Assembly (NCBI RefSeq): GCF_009914755.1
Contig: NC_060932.1
From: the human T2T-CHM13v2.0 reference genome, Homo sapiens
DNA length: 64,000 bases
Direction: 5' to 3' (one strand)
This document shows, one piece after another, positions 29,857 through 60,100 of the stretch; position 1 is the stretch's first letter, and each line of letters starts with the position of its first letter. Position numbers and translations under genes: made by a program. Below the pieces are notes generated by a model. That model was not told the DNA's origin, did not search any database, and worked only from the letters and a program-made list of their open reading frames with translations.

Positions 29857-29931
29857 TGTTCATGGTGTTGTGCAGACCCATCTAGACATTTTTAGTGGTG
29901 TCTTGCTTTGAAATAATTAAGCTACATTAAC
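29857..29931 (-). tRNA. MT-TF: NUMT copy of mt-tRNA-Phe
   Basis: gttaatgtagcttaattatttcaaagcaagacacc...aaaatgtctagatggg...catgaaca. Confidence 0.88.
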
Positions 29932-31241: not shown

Positions 31242-31309
31242 CAAGGAGTAGTTTAATTAGAATTTCAGCTTTGGTTGTTGACGATGAAGTGGGAATGCTT
31301 TTTCCCTGA
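31242..31309 (+). tRNA. MT-TP: NUMT copy of mt-tRNA-Pro
   Basis: caaggagtagtttaattagaatttcagctttgg...tttccctga. Confidence 0.85.
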
Positions 31310-31311
31310 GT

Positions 31312-31378
31312 TGTCCTGGGGAGGGGATTCTCCATTTCTCGTTTACAAGACCAGAGTATTCAATTATACTGCAAGAGC
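31312..31378 (-). tRNA. MT-TT: NUMT copy of mt-tRNA-Thr
   Basis: gctcttgcagtataattgaatactctggtcttgtaaacgagaaatggag. Confidence 0.87.
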
Positions 31379-32513: not shown

Positions 32514-32517
32514 TAGT

Positions 32518-32586
32518 GTTCTTATAAATGTAGTACAAAAATGGTTTTTCATATCATTAGTCATTTTTATAGTTCATGTGGGAATA
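32518..32586 (+). tRNA. MT-TE: NUMT copy of mt-tRNA-Glu
   Basis: gttctt...atggtttttcatatcattagtc...gggaata, between CYTB and ND6. Confidence 0.85.
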
Positions 32587-33011
32587 ATGGCATATGCTTT
32601 ATTTTTATTAAGTATTCTCTGGTTATAGGGTTTTTAGGTTTTTCTTTGAAACTTTCTCTTATTTATGGAGCCCTAGGGCTAATTATTAGGGGTGCTGTGG
32701 GTTGTGATATACTGTTGAATTTTGGTGTGGGTTTCGTGGGGTTAATAGTCTTTTTGATTTATTTGGAGGGCATGATTGTTTTTGGTTATACTATGGCTAT
32801 GGCTATTGAGGAATATCCTGAAATATGAGGGTAAAGTATTGACATTTGAGGGGCTTTCTTATTAGGATTATTAATAGAGTTGATGTTGGTTCGATGAATA
32901 GTTGAGTACGATGTGGTATTCACGATTGATTTTAATAGCGTAGAGAGTTGGGTTATTTTTTAGCATGAGGGGGCAGGGTTATTGCCTGAGGATTCTGTAG
33001 GTGTCGCTGCC
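32587..33011 (+). pseudogene. MT-ND6: NUMT ND6 pseudogene, 3' truncated
   Basis: MAYALFLLS..., [25 protein letters not shown]. Confidence 0.93.
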
Positions 33012-38631: not shown

Positions 38632-38944
38632 GGCTAGGCACTGTGGCTCATGCCTGTAATCCCAGCATTTTGGGAGGCTGAGGTGGGTGGATCATCTGAG
38701 GTCAGGAGTTCAAGGCCAGCATGACAAATATGGTGAAACCCAATCTCTACTAAAAACACAATAATTGGCTAGGCATCATTGCATTTGCCTGTAGTCCTAG
38801 CTACTTGGGAGGCTGAGGCAGAAGAATCACTTGAACCCAGGAGGCAAGGGTTACAGTGAGCCAAGATTGTGCCACTGCACTCCAGCCTGAGTGACAGAGG
38901 GAGAATCTGACTAAAAAAAACAAAAAAACAAAAACAAAAAAAAA
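38632..38944 (+). mobile_element. AluS (Sx/Sz-like), full length, diverged
   Basis: ggctaggcactgtggctcatgcctgtaatcccagc...gatcatctgaggtcaggagttc; A-rich tail; TSD only degenerate. Confidence 0.93.
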
Positions 38945-41900
38945 CAGTTCTCAAAGATTGAAATTGTTCCTCTCATACACGGATCTGACCCATGGGTGTA
39001 TTGGTGATGCATAATTCAGCACACCTGTGAGGCTGTGACTCCCCTACTGGAACACAATCTTGCAGTGGGATTGGGCATCTTATACATGGATTTTGCCCAT
39101 TGATGAGATTGTAACTCTTCTCTTTGACCGCACTCATAGGAGGTGTTACTCACATACACAAAGCCAGGACTCGTGTGGGACTGTGAAACTTATTTCTGAA
39201 TATTTTCTAGTGTGTGATTAGGACGTAAAAGTTAGCCCATCCCCTTGAATAATTTGACTCTTTTTTAGGCCATGACCACAAATGAAATTGTAACATACTT
39301 GGACTATACACCTAAGCAAAGGTGACTGGGCCTGCCTACAAAGGGCACTTTTATGTATCACCTGGGACCAGCACCCAAGTGATGTGAATTCTTTGCCTGT
39401 TCCCTGCCTATAAAAAGCACTGTGGCTTATATCTAGGTTCATCATGTAAGTGATGTGACTCCCTTCTACAGCCTTGGCCATGTACTTATGGTGCATGGTT
39501 ACACATAACTTGGTACTGCACCCAGGTGATGTGACACTCTGTTTTGGGTCCTGCCAACAGGAAGCTTTGTAACACGTTGCTTGGCTGAGCACCTACATGA
39601 TGTTTCTCCTCTCTTGCCTTGCCCTGACCACAAGGGAGATTGTGACATATTGCTAAACCCAGTACCAAGGCGAGGTCACTTTCATACCTTGGTCCTGCAC
39701 ATAGCAGCCATTGTGACACACATCTAGGCCAATTGCTTAAGTGAAGTGAGTCTCCTCACCTTCCTAAGCCCTGTCCAGGGGGAATTTTGATGTATCACAA
39801 AAACCAGCATCCAGTTGATGTGACTCTTCTTCCAGGGTCCTGCCCACAAGAAAGATTGTGACATCTCACTGGACAAGCACCCACCCAGGTGACGTGACCT
39901 TCCTGCTTGCTCTCTGCCCACAGGTGATATTGTGCCATATACCTGAGACCAGATAAGAGGACTAATCATGACTCTTAAACCTGGAGCCAGGTCATATGCA
40001 AGATAGTGTCCCCATTCTTGGAAATTTCCACCAGTGTTATTGTGACATATATCTTTTCCTAGCTCCTGAGTGATTTAATAATCCTGCCTAGGGTAGCCCA
40101 CACATGAAGTCTGGACATTTACCTCAAGTGAGACCCTTGGTGATTTGACTCTCCTGTCTTAACAATATCCTCAGGAAGGATTGTAACATGTTTCTGGACC
40201 CATTTTCTAGGTTACCTGACTCTCCTCTCCTGCCTGGACCCTGCTTCCACTGGGGACTGTAGCATTTCCAAGCTCTGCATCCAAATGATAAGACTCTCTT
40301 GCCTGGTCCTTTCAACAGGAGATATTGTGACATATCTCTGGGTGATATGAGTCTCCTCTTCTGTCTGGATATTGCCCACAAGGAGCATTTTGCCATACAG
40401 TTGGACGTAGCCCCAAAGTTATGTGACTTTTCTGCCAGGAACTTGCCTGCAAGGAGAATATTGGAAAATTCTGGCTCAGCATTTAGGTGACATGGCTGTC
40501 ATACCTGTTTCATTACTACAGAGTAAATTGTGACACACACCTTAGCACAGCTCACAGGCATGATAACGACTCTTATATGTGAACCCCACAAATAGGAGTA
40601 ATTTTGACTCTCATAACTTGCTTTAGAAACACGAGTGATTAAATCTCTTTCCGGTAAAAAAAAAAAAAAGTCACAGAACATTATAACAGCCTCAGATATT
40701 TTATAAAGCCATTGGCTTGTACACAGAGTGTCATAACAGAACCCAGCAGGAAGGTGAAATTGTGAGTCTCATATGCACACCCAGCCAACAGTAAGAACTG
40801 TTACTGTCTCACATATATGAAGCCAACTGTTACTCATAAAAACAGAACATTTGTGGTATTGTACATCTCATCCTGGGAATTTTCTGCCAGTGTGATTGTG
40901 ATATAAATTGTTGCTGAACACCTGTGTGATTTGACTCTCCAGACTGGTTAGAGCTGGCATATGTTATTGTGATATCTACCTGGGCCAACTTCTAGGTGAT
41001 GTGACTCTCCTGCCTGGGCCCTGCTCTCAGTGAGAATCATGAAATATCACTAGATCCAGCACCCAGGGCATGTTACATTTTTGCCTGAGCCATGCTCACA
41101 GAAATCACTGTGACATATCACTGTGTCAAACACTAAGGTGACATAACTCTCCTCATAGAATGTGCCCTGCACACAGTGGGAGATAGTGACATATGGCTGG
41201 GCCAGGCACACGGGTAACAGTACTCTTTTGCTAGGGCCGTGTCCTAAAGAGGGCATTGTGACAAATCTCTGGGCCTATCACTTAGGTGATGTTGCTCTCC
41301 TGCTTGGGTCCTAATTACCTGAATAGTGACATATTACTAGGCTAGGCTCACAAGTGATGGTACTCTTTTGTCAGGGCCATGCCTCAAGGAGGACATTGTG
41401 ACAAGTCTTTGGAACTATCACCTAGGTGATGTGATTCCCTGCTTGAACCCTGCCCACATGGAGCAATGTGACATATGGGTAGAACCTGCACCTATTTGTT
41501 GTAGCTCTCTTCACATGTTAGATTGTGTCATATACCTAGGGAAGCATGTAGGTGATAGGTCTCTGCCAACAATGGATATTATCACTTATCTCTGGGTTTA
41601 TAAGCTAGGTAATTTGTGTCTCCTGCCTGTGCCCTGTCCCCAGAGGACATTGTGACATGTTGTTTGGCTTAACATCTAGGTAATGTGACTCTACATTCCT
41701 GCCTGGGTCCTGCTCACCAAAGAAATTGTGACTTACCGCTGATTGCAAACCCTAAATGATGTGACTGTCCTTCATATTCTAGACTCTGCCAAGAGAGGGG
41801 ATTATTACATATTGCAGAGCCCAGCACCTAGGTGGAGTGACTCTCATCTTTTTCTTCTACCCCGTATATAGCCAGCTTGGTGACCTACTATTTGAGGCTA

Positions 41901-44900
41901 TACCCAGGTAATGTGACTCTCCTGTCTTGTCCCTGCTCACACATAAAATTGTGACATATACCTGGGTTAAGCACACATGCACAATAACTCTCATACCTGG
42001 ACCCAGCCAGTAGAGATTTTTGACTCTTATGGTCAGTCTCACGGCCATTGGTGAAGTCCTGGGTTTTTCACTTGTATAAAGTTCACAAAGGATTATAACA
42101 CTCAGGTATAGCATATAAAGCCTTAATGGTACAGACTGTCATAACAGGGACCAGCAATGACATAAGAATGTGACTCTTGTGTGCACAACTAGCTGACACG
42201 ATTACCATTCTCACACATGAACAGGACCTAGGAATAGGGTCTAAATCTCACAAATAAAAAGCAGTCGAAGGTTGAAATAATTACTCTCATACATGGATCT
42301 GATTCACACGTGGTTTGGTAACATTTGAACCATGATTCAGCACACCTGTGATGCTGTGACTGCCCTACTGGAACACAATCTTCAAGTGGGATTTTGGATC
42401 TTATACATGGATCTTGCCCATTGATGAGATCGTGACTCCTCTACTCAGACCCAACTCATAGAAAGAGTTGACTCACATACATGAAACCAGAACTTTTGTG
42501 GGATGTGAAAATTATTTCTGAACATTTCTGAAAGTGTGATTGGGACAGGTAACTTTGCCAGCACATGAATAATCTGACACTCTTTTTTAGGCCCAGACCA
42601 CAGATGAAATTGTGCAATATGTGGAACAAACACCTAAACAATATATAACACCTTCCTTGGCTCTGTCTACAAAGGGCACTTTTATATATCACTGGGACCA
42701 TCAACCAGGTGATGTTAATTATCTTCCTGAAACCTGTCTACAAAGAGAGTTGTGTCGTATACCTAGGCCCGTCATGTAAGTGATGTCAGTCCCTTCTACT
42801 GCCTTGGCCCTGCACTTACAGTGCATTGTGACACATAACAAGGTACTGCACACAGACGATGTGATTCTCCTTTTTGGGTTCTGCCAAAAGGAAGCATTGT
42901 AATAAATCGCTTGGCTCAGTACCAAGGTGATGTTTCTTTGCTTTTGCCTGGGCCCTGATAACAGGGAGATTGTGATCTATTGCTGGGCCCAACAAAAATG
43001 TGAGGTCACTCTCCAGCCGTGGTACTTCACATAAGCGCCATTGTGACATGTATCTAGGCCAATTGCCTAGGTGAAGTGAGTTTCCTCTCTTGCCAAAGTC
43101 CTGCCCACAGAGGGGGTTTTGATATGTCACTGAAATCAGCATTCAGGTGATGTGACTCTTCTGCCAGGGTCCTGCGTACTAGGTGGATTGTGACATCTCA
43201 CTGGACCCGCAACCATGTAGGTCATGTGACTTTCATGCCTTCTCACTGGCCACAGGTGATGTTGTGCCATATAACTGAGACCGTATCAAAAGCCTAATAA
43301 CAAGACGTATGTCTGGAGCCCCGATATGCACAGGATGGTGAGTCTTATCGTTCAACTTTTCCACAAGTGTAATTGTGACATATACCTCTGCCCAGCTCCT
43401 GAATTAATTATTCTGCCTAGGTATCGCCCACAAATGAGAATTTGACAAATAACAGAGCCAAGCACCTTGATGATTTGACCGCGTTATCTTAACAATGTCC
43501 TCTGGAGGGATTGTAACATATTTCTGGACCCATTTTCTAGGTTACATGACTCTCCCCTCCTGCCTGTGCCCTGATTCCTTGGTAACTACAGCATTTCTGA
43601 GCACTGCATCCAAATGATATGACTGTCTTGCCTGGGCCCTGTCAACAGGAGGCATTGTGACATATTTTGGGGCCCATCATTTAGGGGATAAGACTCTCCT
43701 CTCCTGCTTGGACACTGCCCACAAGGGACATTGTGCCACAGCGCTGGACCTAGCACACAAGTTATGTGACGTTTCTGACAGGTCTGCCTAAAAAGAGGAT
43801 TTTGGAATATTTCTGGCCCAGCATTTAGGTGATGTGGCTGTCCTGCCTGCTTCATAACCACAGAGGGGATTGTAACATATGCCTAGGCACAGCTCACAGG
43901 CATGATAATGACTCTTATATATGGATTCAGCCAATAGAGGATATTTTGACTTTTATAACCAGATTTACATACATGCATGATGTCTTGGATCACATTCCTG
44001 TACAAAGGTCACAAAAGATTACAACACTCACACATATTTTACAAAGTCTTTCGGTAATACAGACAGAGCCAAAGCAGGGCTCAGCACACACGTGAAATTG
44101 TTAGTCATGTATCCAGACCCAGCTGACAGTAAGGACTGTCATCATTTCACATGGATGAAGCCAACTGTGACACATGAAAACAGAACAAGTGTGGTATTGT
44201 GAATCTCATCTTTGGAATTTTCTGACAGTACGATTGTGATACAAATTTTTTCCAAGCAACTGTGTAATTTGACCCTACAGAGTTTTTCCAGCACATATAT
44301 GGGATTGTGATGTCTACCTAGGCCAATCTCAAGGTGATGTGACTCTCCTGCCTGGGCCCTTCTCTCAGTAAGAATTGTGACATATCACTGGATCTAGCAC
44401 ACAGCTGACGTTACATTCTTGCCTGTGCCATGCCCACTAAAATTATTGTGACCTCTTTCTGTATCCACATATAGGTGATATAACCCTCTTCTCTGGAATG
44501 GGCCCCACACAAAGGAAGGATAGTGACATATTGCAAGCCCAGGCACACAGGTAAGGGTACTTTTTTGCCAGAGTCATGGACAAAATAGGTCATTGTGACA
44601 TATCTCTGGGCCTATGACCTAGGGTAAGTGACTCTCCTGCTTGGGCCCTGCCAACCTGGAGTGTGACATATTTCTAGGCCAGGCACACAGGTGAGGGTAC
44701 TCTTTTGCCAGGGCTATGCTTCATAGAGGACATTATGACATATCTCTGGGCCTATCACCTAAGTCAAGTGACTCCCTCCTTGGGCCCTACCCACATGGAG
44801 CATTGTGACATAAACAGAGAACCTGTACCTAGTTGATGTAACTCTCTTGTCTGGGTGCTGTCCTAAGAGAGCCTTTTGACATATCTCAGGACCCAGCACC

Positions 44901-46589
44901 CAAGTGATGTGGCTCTTCTGCCTCATTTCTTCCCACATGTTACACTGTGACATATTCCTAGGAAAGCAGCTGGGTGATATGACTCTCCTCTTCTGCCTGA
45001 GCCCTGCCTACTGGGGACATTGGGACATCTCTGTGCCCGTGATTTAAGTGATGTGACTCTCTTTTTCTGCCTGGGCCTTCACAATAAGAAGATTTTGACA
45101 CATTGCTAAGCACTCAGAATATGTGACTCTCCTCTTTTTCCCAAATCATGCCCACCAAAAAGGAATTTTGACCTATTGCAGAGCCCAGCACCCAGATGAT
45201 GTTACTCTTCTGCCTGGGATCTGCATAAAGCAGAAATTACGGCATATTACATATTGCTGGGCCCAGCACCCTTATGTTGTAACTCTCCTGCCTGTGCTGG
45301 AGCCGCCGAAAATATTTTGACATATCTTGGGCCCATTATGTAGGTGTTTTGGCTCTCATAACTTGGCTGTGTTTTTTCCACATGTGGGATGGTGTCATAT
45401 TGCTGGGCCCAGCATCCAGTTAATGTGACCCAATTTCCTATGCCTTGCCTAGAGAAGGCATTGTGACATATCGCCTGGCACAGCACCTAAGTGATGTTAC
45501 CCTACTGCCTAGTTTTTTGCCCACAAATGGAATTATGACATATACCATGTTTCAGTTCCAACTCATGATGATTATACTTATACTGGGATTCAGCCAATAG
45601 AAAATATTTTGCCTCTCATCTTTAAGCTTAGGTCGATAGGTAAGGTCCTGAGTTCCATGTTTGTACCAAGCTCACAGAAGCTTACAACACTAACTTATAT
45701 TGCATAAACTCTTTCTTGGTAGAGAGATTCAACAGGGGCAGCCAAACATTCAGATTGAAACTCTTCATTACACACCCAGGTGAAATTAAAAGTTGTCACC
45801 ATCCCACATTTACGCAGCCCACTGTTGAGGTCCTGAGTCTAACAAGGGAATACAGTTCAAAGTTTTAATTGTGACTTTTATATGTGGATCTGGACACAGG
45901 TGGGATGGTGACTCATTTCTGGACCCAGCCCACAGTTACAATAATGGGTCTTCTCCCTTAATCCTGCCTGTAGGTGAGATGTTGACTATCAAACCTGGGT
46001 TTAGGCAATATGTACGACTGTGAGTCCATATGAGCTTTTAGGCCTCAGAGAGGTTTGCAACTCTCACGCAGGCTTTATAATGCCCTTGGATGTTGTAGAG
46101 AGTGTAATACTTTGGCCCAACACACAAGTGAGATTGTGACTCTAAAATACACACTCAGCTAAAAGTTAAAGTTGTCACCCTTAAAGATGAAGAGATTGTG
46201 TCATATCACTGGGCCTAGTACCCAGCTGTTGAGATTTTTTGGCTGGAATTCCTTTTCATGGGTGCATTTTTACATGTTGCTGGGTCAGAATCATAATAAT
46301 ATGACACTTCTGCCTGGGCCCTGTCAATAGGGGATATTATCACATATCTCTGAGCCTAATAGCTAAATGATGTGTTTCTCCTGCCAGTGCCCTGCCCACA
46401 AGTAACACTGTGACATATCGCTAGGTATAGCATCTAGGTAATGTGACTCTCCTCTCCTGCCTGGATCCTGCCCACTGAAGAAATTGTGACATAACACTGA
46501 GTGCAAAACCTAGGTGATATGACTCCCCTGTTTGTCCTGGACTCTGCCAAGAGAGAGCATTATAACATATTGCTGAGCCCAGCACCTAG

Positions 46590-47072
46590 TCATGGGGGTT
46601 CAATCAGGCTTGTGTGAAAAATATTAAAGATAGTTATAGTAATATCCAGAAGCCTTCCTGGAAGGCCGAGAAGTTTGCATAGCTTTAGTAAGGGTTATGG
46701 CTGAAGGCAACCTGATCCTTACCTTAAGTAAATAGCTTAAAGTGAGTACCAAGGAATGTAGAGTAGTTTATCTAACTAACTTGTTTTCCTAAGACTCACG
46801 TTTGTTTCACCATAGGTGCTTAATTGCTTTCTACTACTTGGGAGGTCCACAATGCCAATTGCCCTTTAGTATTGACTCAAGCCTTTGTCAAGTAAACATT
46901 CCTGAATAAATGTGAGTCTCACTGGCTGGTCAGGGCTGCAAATGTTTACAGCACTCTGCTTGGAGTCTGTAAGTGACCCAGATGCTCAGTAGAACTGGCA
47001 AAGCAGAATATCTGTGTGTCAGTATCTTCATTTATCAGTCATTGAGTCAGGGTCTGCAGGACAGACCCTGCA
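46590..47072 (+). mobile_element. Solo LTR, LTR22-like (HERV-K HML-5)
   Basis: Starts tcatgggggttcaatcaggc, AATAAA at ~46905, ends ggacagaccctgca; 5-bp TSD cctag (46585-46589 / 47073-47077); family from recalled consensus. Confidence 0.8.
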
Positions 47073-48570
47073 CCTAGGGGGTGGGACTATTCACTATTTT
47101 TTCAACCCTGTGTTCAATGGGCATGATGACTTGTTATTTGAGACTGTACCCAGGTGATATGACTCTTCTGACTGGGTCCTGCCTACAGAGAAGATTATAA
47201 TGTATCCCTGGCTCACAACCCAGATGATGTGACTTTTCTGTCTTGTCTCTGTCCAAAAGTGAAATTGTGACATATACCTGGATTCAGCTCATATGCACAA
47301 TAATAACTCACATAACTAGACCCAGCCAGGGGATATATTTTGACTCACATAGCCATTCTTATGGCCATGGGTAAAGTCCTAGCTCTCCCACCTGTAAGAA
47401 TTCACAGAAAAGTGTGCTACTCAGGCATATCATATAAAGCTTGAGTGGTACAAAGAGTGTCATAACAGGCACCAGCAACCAGGTGCTATTGTGATTCTTA
47501 GATGCACATCCAACTGACATGATAGTCATTCTCATATATGAGCAGAGCCTATGAACGAGGTACTTAATCTCACACACATAAGCAGTTGAAGCGTGAAGTT
47601 GTTACTCTCATACATTAATCTGATCCACAGGTGGTTTGGTGACGTTTGAACCATGATTCAGCAAATCTGTATTGCTTTTACTCCCCTACTGGAACACAAT
47701 CTTCAAGGGGCATTGGGGCTTTTATACATGGATCTTGCCTATTGTTGAGATTGCGACTCCTGTATTTTGACCCAACTCATAGGAGGTGTTATCTCTCATA
47801 CCTGAAGCCAGGACTTTTGTTGGACTGTGAAACTTATTTCTGAACATTTTTGAGTGTGTGATTGAGAAGTATGACTTTGCCCAGCGTCTGAGTGTTTTGA
47901 CTCTTCTTTCTAGGCCCAGAGCACAGTTGAAATTGTGACATATGTACACCAAGCAACCAAGCAATGTATAACACCTCATTTGGCAATGGAATCGAGGGCA
48001 CTTTTACATATCACTGAGACCAGCGCCCAGCTGATGTGAAATATTGGCCTGAACCCTGCCTACAAAAGCATTGTGGCTTTTATCTAGCTCCATTACATAA
48101 GTGATGTGACTTCCTTCTACTGCCTTGGCCCTGCACTTATGGTGAATCGTGACACAAAATTGGGTAGAGCAACCAGGTGATGTGACCCTTTTTTTTTTGG
48201 CGGGGGGCCAGTCTGTCAATAGGAAGCTTTAACATATCACTTGGCTCAGCACCTAGATTGTGTTTCTTCTCTCTAGCCTGGGCCCTGACCAGCACAGAGA
48301 TTGAGGCATATTGCTGAACCCAGGACCAAGATGAAGTCACTCTCCTGCCTTGATCCTGCACACAGGGACCCTTGTGACATATATACAGGCCAATTGCCTA
48401 GGTAAAGTTTGTCTCCTCTCCTGCCTAAGCCCTGCCCATGGGGAGGATTTAGATATATCACTGAAACCAGCATCCAGGTGATATGACTCTTTTTCCAGAG
48501 TCTTGTGACATTTCACTGGACCAGCACCCACTCAGGTGATGTGACTTTCCTTTCTTCTCCCCACCCACAG

Positions 48571-51500
48571 GTGATGTTGTGCAATATACCTGAGACCAGA
48601 TCAATGGCCTAATAATGACTCTTTTACCTAGAGCCAGGACATGTGCAGGATGGTAACTCTCATCCCTGAACCTTTCCACAGGTGTTATTGTCACATATAC
48701 CTTTTCCAGCTCCAAAGTGATTTAATAATCCAGCCTAGTTATAGCCCACAGATAATATTTGGACATATACCTGAGTCAAGAACCTTGGTGATTTGACTCT
48801 CATGTCTTAACAGTGTCCTCAGAAGGGATCATAACATATCTCTGGACCCATCATCTAGGTTATGTGACTCTCTTCTCCTGCCTGAACCCTGCTTCCAGTG
48901 AAGAGTGTTGCATTTCTAAGCACTGCATCCAAATGACATGAGTTTCTTGCCTGGGCCGTTTCAACAGAAGGCATTGTGACATATCTCTAGGTCTATCATT
49001 TAGGTGATATGACTCTCCTCTCCTGCCTGGACACTCTCCACAAGGGGCATTATGCCATAGAGCTAGAGCTAGCAACCAAGTTTTGTGAATTTTCTGTTAG
49101 GGCCTTGCCTACAAAGAGAATTTTGGAATATTTCTGGCTTAGAATTTAAGTAATGTGGTTGTTCTGCCTGTTCAGTAACCACAGAGGAGAAGGTGAAATA
49201 TATCTAGGCACCGCAAACAGGCATGATAATGAGTCTTGTATGTGGACCCAGCAAATAGGAGAAATTTTGACTCTTATAACTAGGTTTAGGAACATGAGTG
49301 ATGTCCAGGATCTCCTTCTGGTAAGAAGGTCACAGAAGATTGCAACACTCACAATTATTTTGTAACACCTTTGGGTTGTATAGGGAGTGTCGTAACAGGG
49401 CCAAACACACAGAGGAAATTGTGACAGTCATATGCACACCTACCTGACAGTAAAGACTTTCACAATCACAAATGGATGAAGGCAACTGTCCTACATGAAA
49501 ACAGGACATGTGTGGTATTGTACATCTAAAACCTAGAATTTTATTCCATTGTGACTGTGATATAAATCAATGCCAAGCACCTGCGTGATTTCACTCTTCA
49601 GACTGGTTCTATTCTACATATGGGATTTTTATATCTACCTATGCCAACCTTGAAGTGTTGTGACTTCTCTGTCTGGACCATGCTCTCAGTAAGAATTGTG
49701 ACATCACTGGATCCAGCATCCAGGTGATGTTACATTTTAGCCTGCACCATGCCCACAGACATAACTGTGACATATCACTGTGTCCATCAGTTAGAAGATG
49801 TAGCTCTCCTCTATGGAATAGCTCTGTACACAGGGCAAAATAGTGATGTATTCCCAGGCCAGGCACACAGGTGATGATATTCTTTTGCCGGGGCCAGGCC
49901 AAAAAGAGGGCATTTTGACATATCACAGTTCCTATCATGTAGGTGATATGGCTCTTCTGCTTGGGACCTGCCCACTTGGGTAGTGACATATTGCTAGGCC
50001 AGGCACAAAGGTGATGGTACTCTTTTGCCAGGGCCATGCTTTCAGAAAGGCTTTGTGACATATCTCTGGGTCCATCACCTAGCTGATGTGACTTCCTGCT
50101 TGGCTCTGCCCACATGGAGCATTGTGACATGAGGGTAGAACCTGCACCTAGGTGATGTAACTCTCTTGCCTGAATCCTTTTCTAAGGGGGACTTGTGAAT
50201 ATCTCAGTACCCAGGACCAGGTGATGTGGCTCTCAGCCTGGTTTCTGCCCACATAATAAATTGTGACATATATGTAAAGAAGCACCTAGGGGATAGGACT
50301 CTCTTTTTGTGCCTGAGCCCTGCCTACTGGTGACATTGGGCCATATCTCTGAGCCCATGACCTAAGTGATGTGACTCTCTTCTTCTGTCTGGGCCTTTAC
50401 AATGGGATGATTGTGACATATTGATGAGCCCAGCACTTAGGTAATGTGACTCTTGTCTTGTTGCTGAACAACGGCCACGAATAGGACTTTTGCCATATTT
50501 TAAGGCCCAGCACCTGGATGATGTTACTCTTCTGACTAGGTCATGCATGAAGGTGGAATTTTGGCATAATGCTTGACCCAGCACCCTAATTATGTGACTC
50601 TCCTGCTTGTGCCTGAGCTACAGAAGGTATTTTGACATAAATTTGTCCCATTTTGTAGGTGTTTTAGCTCTCATCACTTTACTGGGTTTCTTCCTCATGT
50701 GGTTGTATCATATTGCTGGCTTCAGCCCCCAGTTAATATGACCCTCTTTCCTAGGCGCTGCTTAGAGAGGGCATCATGACATATTGCTTGACACAGCACC
50801 TAAGTGATGTTAATCTTCTGCCTAGTTTTCTGCCCACAAATGGGATTATGACAAATACCTTGCTTCAGTTCAAAGGCATGATGATCAAGCTTCTATTGGG
50901 GTTCAGCCAATAGGAGATATTATGCCTCTCACCACTAGGTTTAGGTCAATAGGTAAGGTCCTTCATTGCATATTTATACAAAGCTCACTGAAGTTTACAA
51001 CACTAACTCATATCATAAAAACTTATTGGGTGGTACAGAGTTTCATAACGGAGCCCAGCAAAATGTTAAGATTGTGACTCTCGACTACACACTCAGTTGA
51101 CAGTAAAAGTTGTTACCTTCCTACACTTACAATGCCCATTGTTGAGGTCCTGAGTCTAATAAGTGAATACAGCACAAAGTTGGAATTGTGACTTTCATAA
51201 GTGAATGTGCCCACAGGTGGGATGGTGGCTCATTTTCTGACCCAGCTCACAGGCTAATAATGGTCTCATCTCTGAAACCAGCCTATTGGAGAGCTGTTGA
51301 CTGCCATACCTGGGATTAGGGCAATATGTAAGATCATGAGTCCATATAAGCATGTAGGCCTCAGAGAGGTTTCCAACTCTCATGCATGTTGTATCAAGTT
51401 CTCGGATGTTGTAGAGACTGTCATACAATGGCCAGCACACACATGATATTGTGACACTCATATACACAATGAGCTAACCATTAATGGTGTCACCCTTCAC

Positions 51501-54160
51501 AATGAGGAGATTGTGTCATATCCCTTCACCTAGTACCCTGGTGTTGAGACTTTTTGGTTTAAATTTCTTTCCGTAAGCGCATTGTTACATATCACTGGGT
51601 CAGAATCATGATAATGTGACTCTTCTGCCTGGGCCCTGCAAACAGGGGATATTTTCATATATGTCCAGGCATATTGGCTAGTTGATATATCTCTGCTGCC
51701 AGTGCCCTGCCCACAGGGGACACTGTGACATATCACTAAATATAGCATCTATGTAATGTGGCTCTCCTCTCCTGTCTGAAGGAGATCCTGCCACTGAAGA
51801 AATTGTGAGATACCACTGAGTGCAGAACCTAGGTGACATGATTCTCCTCTCTGTCCTGGACTCTGCCAAGAGAGGGAATTACTACATATTGCTGAGCCAG
51901 CACCCAGGTGGTGTGATTCTCTTTTTTTCTTTAAACCTTTCTACATAGGGTATGGTGACAAATTACTTGAGGCTATACCCAAGAAATGTGGCTCTTCTGC
52001 CTGGTTTCTGCCCACATCTTAGATTGTGACTTATAACTAGGGAAGCACCTTTGTGAGATGACTCTCCTTTTCTGCCTGGGCCCTGCCTACTGGGGACATT
52101 GTGATATATCTCTGAGCCCATGACCTAAGTGAAGTGACTCTCTTCTTCTGCCTGATCTTTACAATTGGGGGATTATGGCATATTGCTGAGCCCAGCACTC
52201 AGGTTATTTGATTCCTTTTTTTCTCAAACCATGCCCACAAACAGAAATTTTGACCTATTGCAGGGTCCAGCACACAGATAGTGTTACTGTTTTGCCTGGG
52301 TCCTGCATATAGAGAGAATTATGGCATATAGCTGGACCCAGCATCCTGATACTCTGACTCTCATGCCTGTGCTGGAGCCAAAGAAGGTATTTTGACATAA
52401 CCTGGGTCCATTATATGGGTGTTTTGGCTCTCATAACTTGGCTGGGTTTTTTTCCACATGTGGAATGGTGTCACATTGGTGAGTCCAGCACCCAGTTAAT
52501 GTGACTGTAATTCCTATACCCTGCCTACAGAAGTCATTGTGACATATTGGTTGGCACAGCACCCAAGTGATGTTAACCTCCTGCCTAGTTTTTTGCCCAC
52601 AAATGGGACTATGACATAGATGGTCAGACTTATACTGGGATTCAGCCAATAGGAGATATTTTGCCTTTCATCTCTACGCTTAGGGCAATAGGTAAGGTCC
52701 CAAGTTGCATATTTTTATCAAACTCACAGAACTTTACAACACTAACTCATAATGTTTAAACTGCTTGGGTGGTACAGAGAGTTTCATGACAGAGACCAGC
52801 AAAAAGTTCAGATTGGGACTCTTGATTACACACCCAGGTGAAAGCAAAAGTTGTGACCATCCCACATGTCCAAAGCCCACTGTCACCCTCAAAGACAAAA
52901 AAAATGGCATATTACTATGCCAAGTACCCAGATGTTGAGACTTTTTGGCTTAAATTCCTTCCGGTGACTGCATTGTGACATATCGCTGGTTTTGAATCAT
53001 AATAATGTGACTCTTCTGCCTGGACCCTGTCAACAGGGGATATTATCACATATCCTTGGGCCTATAAGCTAGGTGATTTGTCTCTCTGGCTTCTGTCCTG
53101 CTCCCAGAAGACATTGTGAAATATTGTTTGACTTAACATCTAGGTAATGTGTCTCTTCTCTCCTGCCTGGTTCCTGCTCATCAAAGACATAGAGCTGTGA
53201 CATAGAGCTGATTGCAAAACCTAGGTGATGTGACTCTCCTTCATATTCTAGACTCTGCAAAGAGAAGGGGTTGGTACATATTGCAGAGCCCACCACCTAG
53301 ATAGTGTGACTCTTCTCTATTTCTTCTTCCTTGTCTATAGTTTGCTTGGTGACATATTATTTGAGGCTGTACCCAGGTGGTGTGACTCTTCTGACTTGGC
53401 CCAGCCTACAAATTAGATTATACTGTATCACTGACTCAGTATGCAGTGGATATGACTCTCCTGTCTTGTCCCTGCTCATAGGTGAGATTGTGAATATACC
53501 TGGGTTAAGCACACATGCACAATAATAATTCTCATACCTGGACCCAGCCAGTAGAGACACTTTGACTCTCACAGCCAGTCTAAGGACCATGAATATAGTC
53601 CTGGATTTTTCACCTGTATAAAGTTCATGAAGGATTATGACACTCAGGTATATCATATAAAGCCTTAATGGTACAAAGAGTGTTGTAACAGAGGCCAGCA
53701 ATGAAAAGAGAATGTGACTCTTGTATACAAACCTAGCAGACAAGATTGTCATTCTCTCACATGTACAGGGCCTAGGAATGAGGTACTAAATCTCACACAT
53801 AAAAAGCAGTCGAAGGTTGAAATAATTACTCTCATATATGGATCTAATTCACAGGTGGGTTGGTAACATTTGAACCATGATTCAGCACACTGTGGTGCTG
53901 TGACTCCCTGACTAGAACACAATCTTCAAGGGGGATTGGGGCTCTTACACATGAATCTGGCTCATTGTTGAGACTATGTCTCCTCTCTTTTGACCCAACT
54001 CATAGAAAGTGTTGACTCACATACAAGAAACCAGGACTTGTATGGGATGTGAAACTTATTTCTGAGCATTTTTGAGAGTGTGAATGGGACAGGTAACTTT
54101 GTCAGAACATGAATAATTTCACTCTCTTTTCTAGGCTCAGACAACAGATGAAATTGTGCA
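48571..54160 (+). pseudogene. BPY2: BPY2/VCY2-like non-coding homologue, copy B (segments 48571-48681, 50755-50875, 53341-53446, 54135-54160)
   Basis: IMTLLPRARTCAG; ALLREGIMTYCLTQHLSDVNLLPSFLPTNGIMTNTLLQFK; VCLVTYYLRLYPGGVTLLTWPSLQIRLYCITDSV; RLRQQ. AG acceptors and phases are consistent with recalled BPY2 protein. Stop at 48654-48656. Confidence 0.78.
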
Positions 54161-57100
54161 ATATGTGGACCAAGCAGCTAAGCAATATAAAACACAATCC
54201 TTGGTTCTGCCTACAAAGGGCACTTTTATATGTCACTGGGACCATCACCCAGGTGATGTGAGTTATTTGCCTGAAACCAGCCTACAAAGAGAATTGTGTC
54301 TTATATCTAGGTCCATCACATAAGTTATGTGACTCCCTTATACTGCCTTGGCCCTGCAGTTACAGGGCATTGTGACACATAACTGTGTACTTCACCCAGG
54401 TGATGTGATTTTCCTTTCTGGGTTCTGCCAACAGGAAGCATTGTAACATATCACTCAGCTCAGCACCTAGGTGATGTTTCTTCATTTTTGCCTGTGCCCT
54501 GACCACAGGGAGATTGTGACATATTGCTGGGCCCAGCACCAATGTAAGGTCACTCTCCAGCCTTGGTACTGCATATAATGGCCATTATGACATATATTTA
54601 GGCCAATTGCCTAGGTAAAGGCAGCCTCCTCTTTTGCCAAAATCCTGCCCACACAAAGGGGATCACTGAAACCAGCATCCAGGTGATGTGACACTTCTGC
54701 CAGGGTGCTGCCCACAAGTTGGATTGTGACATCTCACGGACGCGCACCCATGTAAGTGATGTGAATTTCTTGCCTTCACTCTGGCCACAGGTGATATTGT
54801 TCCATATACCTGAGACCATAACAAAAGCCTAATTACAACTCATGTGACTGGAGCCAGGACATGTGCAGGATGGTGACTCTTCTTAAACCTTTCCACAAGT
54901 GTAATTGTGACCTATACCTTTGCCCAAATCCTGAGTGATTTAATAATTCTGCCTAGGTATAGCCCACAAATCAGATTCTGACAAATACCCGGGCCAAGCA
55001 CCTTGGTGATTTGACTGTGCTATCTTAGCAATGTCCTCAGGTGAGATTGTGACATATTTCTGGACCCATCATCTAGGTTACATGACTTCTCTCCTGCCTA
55101 TACCCTGCTTCCTTTGGTAATTGTAGCATTTCAAAACACTGCATCCAAATGATATGACTCTCTTGCCTGGGCTCTGTCACAGGAGACAATGTGACATATT
55201 TTGGGGCCCATCATTTAGTTGATATGACTCTTCTCTCCTTCCTGGACACGGCCCCCAAGGGGCAAGTCCAGGACCAAGCACACAAGTTATGTGACATTTC
55301 TGACAGAACCCTGCCTACAAAGAGAATATTGGAATATTTCTAGCCCAGCATTTAGGTGATGTGGTGTTCTGCCTGCTTCATAACCACAGAAGGAATTGTA
55401 ACATATACCTAGGCACAGCTCACAGGCATGATAATGACTCTTACATGTGGACTCAGCAAATAGAGGATATTTTGACTCTAATAGCTAGGTTGAGGGACAT
55501 GTGTGATGTTCTGGATCACCTTCTTGTACAAAGGTCACAAAAGATTACAGCACTCACATATTTTACAAAGTCTTTAGGCTATACAGACAGAGGCAAAGTA
55601 GGGCTCAGCACATGGGCAAAATTCTGAGTCTTATACGCACACCCAACTGACAGTAAGGACTGTCATCATCTCACATGGATGAAGCGAACTGTCACTCATG
55701 AAAACAAGATCGGTGTGGTATTGTAAATCTCATTTTTGGAATTTTCTGACAGTATGATTGTGATATAAATCTTTTCCAAGCACCTGTGTAATTTGACTTT
55801 GAAGAATGTTTCCACTCCATATATAAAATTGTGATATCTACCTAGGCCAACCTCAAAGTGATGTGACTCTCCTGCCTGAGCTTTTATCTCAGTAAGAATT
55901 GTGACATATCACTGGATCTATCACCCAGGTGATGTTACATTCTCGCCTTCTCCATGCCCACCAAAATTATTGTGACATATCTCTCTGTCCATCTCATAGG
56001 TGATGTAACTCTCCTCTCTGGAACGGGCCATGAATAAAGGAAAGATTGTGACATATTGCAAGACCAGGCACACAGCTGATGTTACTCTTTTGCCAGAGCC
56101 ATGCAAGGAGAGCATTTTGAGATATCTCTGGACCTATCACCTAGGTGATGTGGCTCTCCTGCTTGGGCCCTGCCAGTCTGGACAGTGACATATTTCTAGG
56201 CCAGGCACACAGGTGATGGTACTCTTTTGCCAGGGCTATGCTTCATAGAGAACAATGTGACAAATCTCTGAGCCTATCTCCTAGGTGAAGTGACTCCCTC
56301 CTTGGGCTCTACTCACATGGAGCATTGTGACATAAGCAAAGAACCTATGCCTAGGTGATGTAACTCTCTTGCCTGGGTGCTGTCCTAAGAGAGCCTTGTG
56401 ACATATCTCATTACCCAGAACCCATGTGATGTGGCCCTTCTGCCTGTTTTTTCTGCCCACAAATTAAATTGTGACATATTTCTAGGGAAGCACCTAGGTG
56501 ATATGACTCTCCTTGTCTACCTGAGCTCTGCCTACTTGGTACATGGGGACATATCTTTGATCTCAGGTCCTAAGTGATATGATTCTCTTCTCCTGCCTTG
56601 GTCTTTAAAATGGTGAGATTGTGACATATTGCTGAGCCCAGCATTTAGGTCATGTGACCCTACTCTGTTTTCTGAACCATGCCCACAAAGGGAAATTGCG
56701 ACCTTTTGCACCCAGATGATATTACTCTTCTGAAAGAGTCCTGAATAAAGGGAATTATTGCATACTGTTGGGCCCAGCACCCTGATAAGGCTATCATCCT
56801 GTCTGTCTGTACCAGAGCCACAGAGAGTATTTTTGACATATCTTCAGCACATTCTGTAGGTGTTTTGGCTCTCATCCCTTGGTTAAGTTTTTCCACATGT
56901 GAAATTGTGTCATATTTCCGGGTCCAGCACCCAGTTATTGTGACCCTCCTACCTAGGTTCTGCCTAGAAAGGCGTGGTGACATGTTGCTTGCCAGATCAC
57001 CTAAAGTGATGTTGCTCTTTTTCCTAATTTTTTGCCCACAAATGGGATTATGATATATACCTTGCTTCAGTTCACAGGCCTGATGGTCTGACTTATATTG

Positions 57101-60100
57101 GGATTAGGCCAATAGAAGATATTTTGCCTCTTATCGCTAGGCTTAAGGTAGTAGTTAAAATCCTGGGTTGCGTATTTGTGCAAAGCTTACAGAAGTTTAC
57201 AACATTAATTCATGTTATATAAACTACTTGGGTGGCACAGAGAGTTCCATAAAAAGGCCCAGCAAAAAGTTAAGATGGTGACTCTCAATTACACACCCAG
57301 GTGAAAGTAAAATTTCTCACCATCCCACATTTACAAAGCCCACTGCTGCAATACCTCGTAAGTCTAATAGGTGAAAACAGTACAAAGATGGAATTTTGAC
57401 TCTCATATGTGCATCGGGCCACAGGTGTGATCTTGACTCATTTTTGGAGCCAGCTCACAGGCATAAAATGTGTCTCATTCCTGAACTCAGCCCAAATAAG
57501 AGATGTTGACTGTCATACCTAGGCTTAAGTCAATATATAAAATTGTGACTCCATATGAGCCTGGGGCCTCAGAGTAGCTTGCAACTCTCATACATGCTGC
57601 ATAAAGCCCTCGGATGCTGTAGAGGACTTCATACAATTGCCTAGCACACAAGTGAAATTGTGACTTTCATACACACCAAGCTAACAGTTAAAGGTGTCAC
57701 CCTCAAAGATGAGGAGATTGTGTCATGTCACTGGGCCTAGTACCCAGGTGTTAAAACTTCCTTTAATTGTATACCAAGTGTACATTGTGACATATCGTTA
57801 GGTCAGAATCACGATAATGTGATTCTTCTGCCTGGGACCTTCCAACAAGGGATATTATCACATATATCTGGCCTGTCAGCTAGGTGACTGGTCTATTTTT
57901 ACTGTGCTTTGCCCCCAAGGAACATTGTGACATCGCTGGATGTAGCATCTACGAAATGTGACTCTCCTCTCCTGCTTAGGTCCTGCCCACAAAAGGAATT
58001 GTGACATATCACTGAGTGCAAAACCTAGTAAATGCAACTCTCCTCTTTATTCTGGAGTCTGCCAAAAGAGGGGATTATTACATATTGTTGAGCCCAGCAC
58101 CTAGGTGTTGTGACTCTCCCCTTTTTCTTCAACCCTGTCTGCAGTGGACATGGTGTCATATTACTTGAGGCTGTACCGAGGTGATGTGACTCTTCTGACA
58201 TGGCCCTGTCTGCAAAGGAGATTATAATGTATCCTGAGCCCAGAATCCAGATGATGAGACTCTCCTGCCTTGTTTCTGCTCACAGGTGAAATCGAGTAGG
58301 CTAGAACACTGTGACCCTTAATGCTTGGCTCATGCAGTCTTCAGAGGAATTTCAAAAACCACAGGATGTTGGTGGGGGTAGACAAAGAGCTGGTACAAAT
58401 GACAAGCTGCAAGTGAAATAATTGAAGGCAGGAAGAGAGTGGGACCTGCTTCGAACAGGACACCCACTGCCTTGCTGCAGCAGCACAGTCAGGCCAGTTC
58501 TCTGATTTGGACCTTATGCCAAGGAATTAACAGGCCCACTTCTGCTCTGTCCCAGGTGCTGAACTCCTTAGTTCTGGAACTAAATGTGAATTCTGGACTC
58601 CGGAATGCCAGTTGGCTTTCACATGCCAGAGGAGTGAGGAGGCCCAGGTGGGCCTAAAAATGTGGCTGTTGGTTGGCCTTCCACACATGTCTGGTTGCTT
58701 CTGTGCCTATGCTTGCAAGGAAGAGGGATCTTCTTCCTCAAGACAAGCCCAAGGAGGTCTCAAGCAAGCCCAAAGAGGTCTGAGGCTTATGGGAGCCAGT
58801 GGAAAAAAAAAATGATGCCTCAGTCCAGTGCTTTTGCCCTTCCTGGCTTGGGGCTTTGGGGGATCAATTTGCTGATCAGAAAATAGGCAATGAGAGCCCC
58901 TCATTGACTGGCTACTCACCCCACTTTTAATAGGCCACTGCACCGTGCCCACCATGCAGCTCTAGGTACAGTCTGGGCTTCAAGATCCTGGGGCATCTCT
59001 GGGCTGGGTTCAGGGCCCTGAGAAGGTTCTCCCTCTCAGGGACCCCCCATGCCTACCCCTTTGTGCCCACCTGACAGCTCAGCGTATCTGCTGTATGACA
59101 CCCTTATTGCCTGCTCTTGCCAAGCCCATGTCTCCCCGGGGTGGCCAGGGGCACATGCTCACTGAAGCCCAGGTGGCCTGTCCATCCTTCCTCCAATGCA
59201 CAGCCTCAGGCAGGTGCCACCCAGGTTTCCTCCTAAAATGTGATCTCAGGGGGTCACAGCAGCACATTCTGCTCTAACTTACTGACTAGTTAATAAGTCA
59301 CTAAATGTGCAAAGTTGGGTGTGGGCCTTGACACTCTTGATTGCCTTCCTCTAGTGGGGCTGCATTGGGCATTGCCATACTGAATTGTTTGTGGAAAAAG
59401 CTAGCAGGTGAGGCAGGACTCAAGGGCCAGGGAAAGGACAGAGCACCGAGGCTGGACTCTCCCAGGGCCCTCTGAGGCCCCTGCAGGTAGGAGGATGCAG
59501 TGGAGCTCCAGGCCCCTTTTCTAGTGTGGTGCTGAATAGAGCCTTCCTGGAGCACCAAGAAGTCCCTACTCTTTCTGCAACCACCACCCATTGGTCTCTA
59601 GGAAGTGAACATCCATTTATATTTGTGGACATGGCCTTCTGCTTAATTTCCATTGGATGTTCTCCTAGAAGAAATGTCTAGGGAATCCTGGGCCTGTGGT
59701 GGAGTTTCTCTAAGTGCCAGTCTCAAGAATACAATTAATAGTATTTTGTGCACATTACTATCTCAGGGTTACTTTTGCCCAATAATGTGTAGAAAATAAA
59801 TATTAACATTTTTATCCCTTACATTATTTTAATTAGGTAATCTTAAAAACTTTTTATTTTCCTGAAATTTATTTTCATGCCAATCATCAAATTGTGGGTT
59901 TTTCTTGTTCAAATTATTACCTGTTTTAGAGGCAAAATCTTAAAAATAATATGCTACACAAATACTAACAAGTGAGAGAAATGTATTTAAAATGTAATTA
60001 GATTTCTTAAATAAATAATTTAAGTAATTATTTACTTAATTATAGTTTATATACAAATTATAGTTTATATTATTTGTATGAATTATTTTACAGCTTATCC

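What the first reader, a model, noticed from the sequence alone, without database searches (positions are those of the whole stretch)
48571..54160. Proto-gene in satellite DNA: complete BPY2/VCY2-like exon set made of beta-satellite sequence
Seen: four + strand segments, each preceded by pyrimidine-AG, join in consistent phase. They are IMTLLPRARTCAG (48612), ALLREGIMTYCLTQHLSDVNLL..NG..NTLLQFK (50755, ending at a GC donor), VCLVTYYLRLYPGGVTLLTWPSLQIRLYCITDSV (53341) and RLRQQ (54135). Recalled BPY2: MMTLVPRARTRAG.../VLLTEGIMTYCLTKNLSDVNILHRLLKNGNVRNTLLQSK/VGLLTYYVKLYPGEVTLLTRPSIQMRLCCITGSVS/RPRSQK. That gives 26/40 and 24/35 identities by hand for segments 2 and 3. The codons are the satellite motifs themselves (gtgacatat = VTY, ggtgatgtgactctt = GDVTL). 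BPY2 is reported as a de novo gene. Inference: its coding sequence is exonised complex beta-satellite, and this locus preserves a non-coding relative.
Basis: partly seen in the sequence, partly recalled or inferred. Interest (0 to 1): 0.85.

Follow-up and report, generated by a model that had tools for sequence, protein, structure and literature searches.

The report
Known BPY2 relative built from satellite
This stretch of chromosome 8 is the already published non-coding relative (BEYLA/LINC00293) of the Y-linked testis gene BPY2, and both are built from old, decayed beta-satellite-like repeats that supply the splice sites and the reading frame.

Summary
I derived the 106-codon BPY2 reading frame from the Y chromosome of the same assembly. 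They sit inside a colinear block that is 81% identical over 5.9 kb.

The chr8 copy cannot encode BPY2:
- The start codon is ATA, not ATG.
- Eight bases are missing from exon 1, and a TAA follows after 14 codons.
- The exon 2 donor is GC and the exon 3 donor is lost.
- The stop codon is lost.

This homology, with these same disablers, is already in print (Stuppia 2005, cited only; Cao 2015, PMC4370482, read). The core finding is therefore already known.

The satellite reading is also supported. The window carries 342 head-to-tail monomers of about 71 bp, all on the + strand. They are related to the 68-bp beta satellite of chr1 (consensus 55 of 71). BPY2 exons 2-4 map onto these monomers; exon 1 does so only weakly. 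All BPY2 coding splice sites, and most LINC00293 sites, fall at three fixed monomer positions. Exon 2 and the first monomer of exon 3 use the only open frame of the consensus monomer.

I found no paper linking BPY2 to satellite DNA, but several key papers and the repeat annotations could not be seen.

The parts
48503..54306 (+). Repeat unit colinear with the 6.2-kb BPY2 coding unit of chrY, introns included
   Evidence: two colinear blastn pieces, 81.2% identity over 5,891 aligned columns, covering 5,844 of 6,201 query bases. One segment of about 345 bp in the Y unit is absent here, at about 52883.
48571..48611 (+). 5' part of the exon that holds the BPY2 start in the Y copy. Here it is the start of the last LINC00293 exon (48571-49592). 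The acceptor CACAG|G lies at monomer position 68|69.
   Evidence: Hub annotation for the exon; for the homology and the monomer position.
48612..48681 (+). Homolog of BPY2 coding exon 1. ATA replaces the ATG, and 5-nt and 3-nt gaps give a net frameshift. The GT donor is kept.
   Evidence: 58 of 78 columns identical, 8 gap columns. for the translation.
48654..48656 (+). In-frame TAA, 42 nt after the start position. This is the 'disabler' described by Cao 2015.
   Evidence: PMC4370482 section 10.
50755..50875 (+). Homolog of BPY2 coding exon 2. It is open in the BPY2 frame and carries a 3-nt in-frame insertion. Acceptor AG at monomer position 55|56; donor GC at 33|34.
   Evidence: 104 of 121 columns identical; fit to monomer z = 19.0.
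53341..53446 (+). Homolog of BPY2 coding exon 3, open in frame. Acceptor AG at monomer position 68|69. The donor is lost (TG where BPY2 has GT) at 33|34.
   Evidence: 89 of 106 columns identical; z = 14.9; chr1-only profile hit at 53349-53410, E = 0.0046.
54135..54153 (+). Homolog of BPY2 coding exon 4. Acceptor AG at monomer position 55|56. The TAA stop is replaced by AAA, so the frame runs on.
   Evidence: 14 of 19 columns identical.
33027..58287 (+). Block of diverged head-to-tail monomers of about 71 bp, beta-satellite-like, interspersed with 0.3-0.6 kb spacer modules. It holds LINC00293 and the finding.
7738..20331 (+). Second block of the same monomers. It holds LOC105375812 and the first half of a second BPY2-like exon set.
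16298..16389 (+). Second set, exon 1-like (72% identity)
18472..18616 (+). Second set, exon 2-like (82% identity)
33426..33553 (+). Second set, exon 3-like (81.5% identity). It is separated from exon 2-like by the 12-kb insertion at 21017-33026.
34185..34223 (+). Second set, exon 4-like (92% identity)

Best explanation
Window 48.5-54.3 kb is one unit of an old composite repeat on chr8q11, the BEYLA/LINC00293 region. It is a non-coding paralog, in an ancestral-like state, of the unit on the Y that encodes BPY2/VCY2.

The repeat is made of diverged beta-satellite-like monomers of about 71 bp, all in one orientation, with 0.3-0.6 kb spacers between runs.

In this orientation each monomer carries three things:
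- a donor-like YAG|GTGATG at position 33|34;
- pyrimidine-rich acceptors at 55|56 and 68|69;
- one frame without stop codons.

Transcription through the array therefore yields spliced RNAs whose exons are cut at these positions (LINC00293, LOC105375812, BPY2).

On the Y lineage a few changes joined four such exons into a 106-codon frame. These were ATA to ATG, +5 and +3 nt in exon 1 with removal of a TAA/TGA, repair or retention of GT donors, and a new TAA.

The chr8 copy kept the non-coding states and makes no BPY2-like protein. At most its first segment is transcribed, as the 3' exon of LINC00293.

Shown: the homology, the boundaries, the disablers, the monomer mapping and the splice-site positions. 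Inferred: the direction of change (supported by Cao 2015), and that the monomer motifs are the cause of the exon structure.
For: BPY2 reading frame and homology:
- The BPY2 frame was derived from chrY.
- Exon boundaries are identical in the window.
- The block is colinear at 81.2% over 5.9 kb.

Disablers in the window: ATA at the start, -8 nt in exon 1, TAA after 14 codons, GC and TG donors, and AAA in place of the stop. These match those printed by Cao 2015.

Direction of change: 6 of 6 other copies lack the two exon 1 insertions of BPY2.

Monomers:
- The anchor motif occurs 272 times on + and 22 times on -, with modal spacing 71.
- The local profile gives 342 hits, all on +.
- A chr1 array with period 68 (TRF) gives a profile that hits the window 126-148 times, with 0 hits in shuffles.
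- The two consensus sequences are identical at 55 of 71 positions.

Exons on monomers:
- z = 17.2, 13.4 and 7.9 for BPY2 exons 2-4.
- 0 of 1000 shuffles reach the local score.

Splice sites:
- All 6 BPY2 coding splice sites map at 33|34, 55|56 or 68|69.
- 9 of 11 LINC00293 donors map at 33|34, and 8 of its 11 acceptors at 50-56 or 68|69.
- 4 of 4 LOC105375812 sites map at 33|34 or 68|69.

Reading frame: the consensus monomer is open in 1 of 3 frames. That is the frame read in exon 2 and in the first monomer of exon 3.
Against: - Exon 1 alone is only marginally monomer-like: 25 of 1000 shuffles reach the score for BPY2 and 17 of 1000 for the window.
- The monomers are 71 bp, not 68. They lack the GATC site in the consensus. 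They average 67% identity to the chr1 consensus, against a shuffled mean of 54% and maximum of 63%.
- TRF sees only two short arrays of 137-140 bp in the window.
- The hub note says only 11% of the window is masked as repeat, so standard annotation may not call this beta satellite.
- The spacer at 50880-51500 is not monomer-like (61 of 1000 shuffles).
- This unit is not a unique ortholog. The tree leaves it unresolved with two other chr8 units and the Y 5'UTR unit.
- The path length to BPY2 is about 0.21 changes per site. By my own estimate that is more than expected for a transposition about 35 My ago.
- 2 of 11 LINC00293 acceptors use the 33|34 site, and 1 lies in sequence that does not fit the monomer.
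Confidence: 0.83

Rival explanations
1. The chr8 set is a decayed pseudogene of a once-coding BPY2. Either it was copied from the Y to the autosome, or an ancestral coding gene was lost on chr8.
For: - Exons 2-4 stay open in the BPY2 frame for 117 codons.
- 54 of 80 residues are identical.
- All three acceptors are intact.
Against: - The same non-coding states recur in 6 of 6 other copies on chr8, chr7 and the Y. These are the absence of the +5 and +3 nt and a stop in exon 1. Their recurrence makes them ancestral rather than independent losses.
- The consensus monomer is itself open in this frame, so openness needs no selection.
- Cao 2015 reports the same disablers in chimpanzee, macaque and marmoset autosomes (abstract and section 10).
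Confidence: 0.05
2. The monomer family is not beta satellite. It is a separate 71-bp tandem family that merely shares two short motifs with it.
For: - The period is 71, not 68, and the consensus has no Sau3A site.
- Mean identity to the chr1 consensus is only 67%.
- The region seems unmasked in NCBI's file (hub note).
- The family, with its 0.6-kb spacer, was found only on chr8, chr7 and the Y among the 40 scored of 355 candidates.
Against: - The consensus sequences align end to end, 55 of 71 identical with two small gaps.
- The chr1-only profile gives full-length hits (model positions 1-68), with E down to 3e-9. All 126-148 hits are on one strand and shuffled sequence gives none.
- A 17-mer from the window occurs 7,621 times in the genome. 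The first 100 places listed all lie in the chr1 68-bp array.
Confidence: 0.1
3. The resemblance to BPY2 is a by-product of repetitiveness. On this view any stretch of this satellite would look like a BPY2 exon set.
For: Many exon-like copies exist in the window: 9 exon 2-like, 9 exon 3-like, and 6 each of exon 1-like and exon 4-like.
Against:
- They lie in BPY2 order and spacing.
- The intervening 'introns', including non-monomer spacers, are colinear at 81%.
Confidence: 0.02

Closest known systems
BEYLA / LINC00293, the autosomal non-coding homolog of VCY2 (BPY2). Sources: Stuppia et al. 2005, Genomics 85:280 (cited, not read); Cao et al. 2015, PLoS One, PMC4370482 (abstract and sections 10, 19 and 20 read).
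   Same: - Same locus: segment 1 lies in the last LINC00293 exon.
- Same four-exon reconstruction.
- Same disablers: ATG to ATA, TAA to AAA, and a stop 42 nt after the start.
- Same conclusion that the Y gene gained coding ability.
- Two exon sets in the region, as I find at 48.6-54.2 kb and at 16.3-18.6 plus 33.4-34.2 kb.
   Different: - The paper does not contain the word 'satellite' (0 occurrences).
- It does not relate exons, splice sites or frame to a monomer.
Beta satellite (Sau3A family, 68-bp unit) and beta-composite arrays. Sources: Altemose et al. preprint 10.1101/2021.07.12.452052 (passages seen); review PMC8125562 (passages seen).
   Same: - Head-to-tail monomers in one orientation.
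- Consensus 55 of 71 identical to the chr1 array consensus.
- Interspersed with a second element, as in composite arrays.
- Pericentromeric setting at 8q11.
   Different: - The unit is 71 bp.
- The consensus has no GATC site.
- Pairwise identity is about 63%, so no homogenised array.
- The spacer here was not compared with LSau.
Complex beta-satellite structures beside the ZNF cluster in 19p12. Source: Eichler et al. 1998, seen only in the reference list of PMC8125562.
   Same: Beta-satellite-related repeats spread together with segmental duplications next to ZNF genes. Cao 2015 lists ZNF736 and TRIM60 pseudogenes flanking BEYLA and VCY2.
   Different: Not read. No claim of coding exons derived from the satellite is known to me.
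De novo genes born from non-coding DNA
   Same: A non-coding ancestral state is preserved in paralogs, and a few enabling mutations create the frame.
   Different: Here the raw material is a tandem satellite whose monomer already carries splice signals and an open frame.

Membership tests
BPY2/VCY2 protein-coding gene | ATG at the start position | tested here: not met
   ATA at 48612-48614. The next codon is ATG.
BPY2/VCY2 protein-coding gene | Uninterrupted frame of 106 codons across four exons | tested here: not met
   Exon 1 homolog is 70 nt against 78, with TAA after 14 codons. Exons 2-4 are open.
BPY2/VCY2 protein-coding gene | AG acceptors and GT donors at all coding junctions | tested here: not met
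   Acceptors are AG at 3 of 3. Donors are GT, GC and TG.
BPY2/VCY2 protein-coding gene | TAA stop in exon 4 | tested here: not met
   AAA at the homologous codon; the frame runs on.
BEYLA/LINC00293 non-coding homolog of VCY2 (Cao 2015) | Lies at 8q11 in or next to LINC00293 | tested here: met
   Hub annotation: LINC00293 last exon is 48571-49592. The window is chr8:47.18-47.25 Mb.
BEYLA/LINC00293 non-coding homolog of VCY2 (Cao 2015) | Published disablers: start ATG to ATA/ATT, stop TAA to AAA, premature stop 42 nt after the start | tested here: met
   compared with PMC4370482 section 10.
BEYLA/LINC00293 non-coding homolog of VCY2 (Cao 2015) | Colinear genomic homology with the VCY2 coding region | tested here: met
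   81.2% over 5,891 columns.
Beta satellite | 68-bp repeat unit | tested here: not met
   Modal spacing is 71, with a range of about 65-77. The chr1 reference array has period 68.
Beta satellite | Head-to-tail tandem arrays | tested here: met
   342 profile hits, all on the + strand, mostly abutting.
Beta satellite | Sequence homology to canonical monomers | tested here: met
   - Consensus 55 of 71 identical.
- The chr1-only profile gives 126-148 hits and 0 in shuffles.
- Mean monomer identity is 67% against 54% for shuffled monomers.
Beta satellite | Sau3A (GATC) site in the monomer | tested here: not met
   The local consensus has no GATC; the chr1 consensus has one.
Beta satellite | Classified as BSR/Beta by RepeatMasker/Dfam or as bSat in the T2T satellite track | not testable with these tools
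   No repeat library is on hand. The hub note says only 11% of the window is masked, with no family names.

The most novel reading that the evidence does not exclude
BPY2 would be a human protein-coding gene whose reading frame was assembled almost wholly from beta-satellite-derived monomers (at least exons 2-4, 243 of 321 nt). The satellite itself pre-supplies the donor (33|34), the acceptors (55|56 and 68|69) and the only stop-free frame. Exons 2 and 3 then encode two copies of the same monomer-derived peptide.

This would make a decayed satellite family a ready-made substrate for exon and gene birth. It would explain why lncRNAs such as LINC00293 and LOC105375812 arise in this repeat family. 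It appears not to be in print, though it may be visible in repeat annotation tracks that I could not see.
Probability: 0.4. Interest if true: 0.65.

Novelty: already known. Interest (0 to 1): 0.42.

Why it matters
The core finding is a BPY2-like exon set at chr8q11 that stayed non-coding while the Y copy became a gene. It is a published textbook-style case of de novo gene birth, so it adds nothing new by itself.

The worthwhile addition is the raw material. The exons, their splice sites and their frame come from a decayed beta-satellite-like monomer. That gives a concrete, testable reason why this region produces spliced testis RNAs and why one copy could become coding with a handful of changes. 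It also shows that satellite DNA can seed protein-coding sequence.

It also flags about 38 kb of the window as a cryptic satellite-derived repeat that tandem-repeat finders mostly miss.

Tried and rejected
- Wrong Y unit at first. I took the best Y match of segment 2 (L009, C24:23.82 Mb) for BPY2. Its exon 1 and exon 2 homologs are not open. It is the duplicated 5'UTR unit described by Cao 2015. The coding unit is the next one downstream (L010).
- TRF on the window found only two short arrays of 137-140 bp. The monomers are too diverged for it.
- A two-motif pattern search of the genome gave 0 matches. I replaced it with a 17-mer from the window.
- The first monomer alignment forced end gaps and produced meaningless long gaps. 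I use from it only the pairwise alignment of the two consensus sequences (55 of 71). The exon-to-monomer alignments were redone as a fitting alignment.
- Pfam scan of the exon 2 and exon 3 peptides of the window and of BPY2: 0 families for 4 of 4.
- I did not test whether the spacer modules are LSau, for lack of a reference sequence.
- Bhowmick 2007 is not held, by DOI or PMC id. Stuppia 2005 was not looked up and is known only from Cao 2015's citations.
- No complex or structure prediction was attempted, because nothing in the question depended on one.


Full report
**1. Observation.**
The four segments are in the sequence as described. Instead I searched the window's own assembly. Segment 2 has many paralogs on chr8, chr7 and chrY, including three equal hits on the Y.

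The first Y unit I fetched (L009) is colinear with the window at about 81%. However, it is not open at the exon 1 and exon 2 homologs. The next unit downstream (L010, C24:23826401-23836400) holds the real gene. Exons 1620-1697, 3757-3874, 6729-6834 and 7527-7545 have AG/GT splice sites. They give 321 nt from ATG to TAA, or 106 codons. The 6.2-kb unit occurs three times at 100% identity on the Y. This fits the three BPY2 copies listed by Cao 2015.

**2. Exon-by-exon comparison.**

| BPY2 exon | Window homolog | Identical columns | Splice sites and other differences |
|---|---|---|---|
| 1 | 48612-48681 | 58 of 78 | 5-nt and 3-nt gaps; ATA for ATG; GT donor kept |
| 2 | 50755-50875 | 104 of 121 | 3 extra nt; AG acceptor; GC donor |
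| 3 | 53341-53446 | 89 of 106 | AG acceptor; TG in place of the GT donor |
| 4 | 54135-54153 | 14 of 19 | AG acceptor; AAA in place of TAA |

Read from the start position, segment 1 gives 14 codons and then TAA. It is 70 nt long, so it does not join segment 2 in phase. Segments 2-4 do join in the BPY2 phases and stay open for 117 codons. Over these exons 54 of 80 BPY2 residues are identical.

The whole unit is colinear with window 48503-54306 at 81.2% over 5,891 columns.

**3. Context.**

A second set lies at 16298, 18472, 33426 and 34185. It is split by a clean 12-kb insertion at 21017-33026. By the hub table, that insertion holds the annotated mitochondrial pseudogenes and a long masked repeat.

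Other units reach similar identity to the BPY2 unit:
- chr8 47.017 Mb: 80.3%.
- chr7 65.58 Mb: 79.0%.
- Y 7.59 Mb: 84.2%.

A maximum-likelihood tree of 15 aligned pieces gives a clade with 100/99 support. It holds the BPY2 unit with the Y 7.59 Mb unit, the Y 5'UTR unit, chr8 47.017 Mb, window 17953 and window 50222. The order inside the clade is unresolved. The locus is therefore one of several near-equidistant relatives, not a unique ancestor.

All 6 non-BPY2 copies lack the +5 and +3 nt of BPY2 exon 1. This makes those insertions derived on the BPY2 lineage.

**4. Already in print.**
Cao et al. 2015 (PMC4370482; abstract and sections 10, 19 and 20 read) describe the following:
- BEYLA/LINC00293 at 8q11 as the non-coding homolog of VCY2.
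- Two reconstructed exon sets.
- The disablers: ATG to ATA/ATT, TAA to AAA, and a stop 42 nt after the start.
- A chr7 copy.
- BPY2DP, which has a start and a stop but also the exon 1 stop.

All of this agrees with what I found. They cite Stuppia 2005 for the first report, which I have not read. A 2024 preprint repeats this account (PMC11014635, passages seen).

**5. Satellite nature.**
An 11-nt anchor with up to 2 mismatches occurs 272 times on the + strand and 22 times on the - strand. The modal spacing is 71, with multiples. From these I took 152 monomers, which give a 71-nt consensus.

A 17-mer from the window occurs 7,621 times in the genome, and its reversed control occurs 0 times. The first 100 places listed are all at chr1:128.10-128.29 Mb, spaced in multiples of about 68-69 bp. 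TRF on one of those loci gives period 68 and 44 copies, with a GATC in the consensus.

Beta satellite is defined by a 68-bp unit, with arrays on chr1 and the acrocentric chromosomes (Altemose preprint and review PMC8125562, passages seen).

A profile built from 54 chr1 monomers gave these hits, all on the + strand. The monomers came from 3 non-overlapping loci of the 12 fetched.

| Target | Hits |
|---|---|
| Window | 126 |
| L009 | 19 |
| L010 | 20 |
| L011 | 23 |
| Shuffled window | 0 |

On the window alone the same profile gives 148 hits. The two consensus sequences share 55 of 71 positions.

A local profile was built from the 120 monomers outside 47.5-55.5 kb. It gives 67 hits in 48-55 kb (62% coverage), 85 hits in L010 and 0 hits in 5 shuffles. 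Over the whole window it gives 342 hits, all on +, in blocks 7738-20331 and 33027-58287.

The monomers are old:
- 71% identity to their own consensus.
- 67% identity to the chr1 consensus, against 54% for shuffled monomers.
- 63% pairwise identity.

**6. Exons on monomers.**
I used a fitting alignment to the consensus with 100 shuffles.

| Exon | BPY2 z | Window z |
|---|---|---|
| 2 | 17.2 | 19.0 |
| 3 | 13.4 | 14.9 |
| 4 | 7.9 | 9.8 |
| 1 | 3.0 | 5.7 |

The exon 1 values include flanking sequence. Exon-only local alignment gives 0 of 1000 shuffles reaching the score for exons 2, 3 and 4. For exon 1 it gives 25 of 1000 for BPY2 and 17 of 1000 for the window.

Splice sites fall at fixed monomer positions:

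| Site | Monomer position |
|---|---|
| Exon 2 acceptor | 55\|56 |
| Exon 2 donor | 33\|34 |
| Exon 3 acceptor | 68\|69 |
| Exon 3 donor | 33\|34 |
| Exon 4 acceptor | 55\|56 |
| Exon 1 donor | 68\|69 |

The same positions serve the annotated lncRNAs:
- LINC00293 donors: 9 of 11 at 33|34. The other 2 lie at a GATG|GTGAGT variant.
- LINC00293 acceptors: 3 at 68|69, 4 at 54-56, 1 at 50|51 and 2 at 33|34. One lies in sequence that does not fit the monomer (z = 1.3).
- LOC105375812: 2 of 2 donors at 33|34 and 2 of 2 acceptors at 68|69.

The consensus monomer is open in only one of three frames. That frame is the one read in BPY2 exon 2 and in the first monomer of exon 3. Of the 152 monomers, 56, 33 and 5 are open in frames 3, 2 and 1. 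Exons 2 and 3 therefore encode related monomer-derived peptides.

The spacers are not clearly monomer-like. For 50880-51500, 61 of 1000 shuffles reach the score. Among the 40 scored of 355 candidates, that spacer occurs only on chr8 47.0-47.27 Mb, chr7, and chrY 7.47-8.16 and 23.7-26.0 Mb.

**7. Is the satellite link in print?**
- BPY2 with 'beta satellite': 0 papers.
- BPY2 with 'satellite': 31 papers. I read passages of three, and none connects them.
- VCY2 with 'satellite': 3 papers.
- LINC00293 with 'satellite': 4 papers, listing only.
- Cao 2015 contains the word 0 times.

The library lacks most subscription papers. I could not see repeat annotation tracks or bioRxiv supplements. The claim 'not in print' is therefore weak.

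**8. Verdict.**
The main content, the chr8 non-coding BPY2 relative, is already known. The satellite derivation of the exons, splice sites and frame is a sound addition and possibly unpublished.

Three things remain open:
- formal family assignment of the monomers;
- the origin of exon 1;
- whether segments 2-4 are ever transcribed.

Noticed in passing
window 21017-33026: A clean 12-kb insertion splits the second BPY2-like unit. The unit alignment stops at 21016 (query position 4809) and resumes at 33027 (query position 4814). The inserted stretch holds the annotated mitochondrial pseudogenes (ND2, ND1, tRNA-Leu, CYB, ND6) and the long masked repeat at 25470-29844. This suggests a single NUMT insertion that was itself later interrupted.
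   Followed up: partly
window 34693-49592 and 9971-12333: Nearly all splice sites of LINC00293 and LOC105375812 sit at three fixed positions of the 71-bp monomer (33|34, 54-56, 68|69). LINC00293 exons 2, 8 and 12 start at the same monomer position and motif as the ATG-bearing exon of BPY2. Exons 7 and 10 start at exon 4-type acceptors.
   Followed up: yes
L010 about 5930-6276 (chrY) against window about 52883: A segment of about 345 bp in the BPY2 intron between coding exons 2 and 3 has no counterpart in the window unit.
   Followed up: no
G000:C24:7.47-8.16 Mb: A large block on the Y short-arm side carries dozens of copies of the same composite repeat. It includes a unit at 7.59 Mb that has the BPY2 ATG and TAA but lacks the +5 nt of exon 1. 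This fits the BPY2DP described by Cao 2015.
   Followed up: partly
tree: The path length between the BPY2 unit and the chr8 units is about 0.21 changes per site. By my own estimate that is roughly twice what a transposition about 35 My ago would give. Either the units diverged before the move to the Y, or this sequence evolves fast.
   Followed up: no
window 52493-52614: A tandem, shorter copy of the exon 2-like segment lies 1.75 kb downstream of segment 2. The units contain an internal sub-repeat of about 1.75 kb, seen as off-register self matches.
   Followed up: partly
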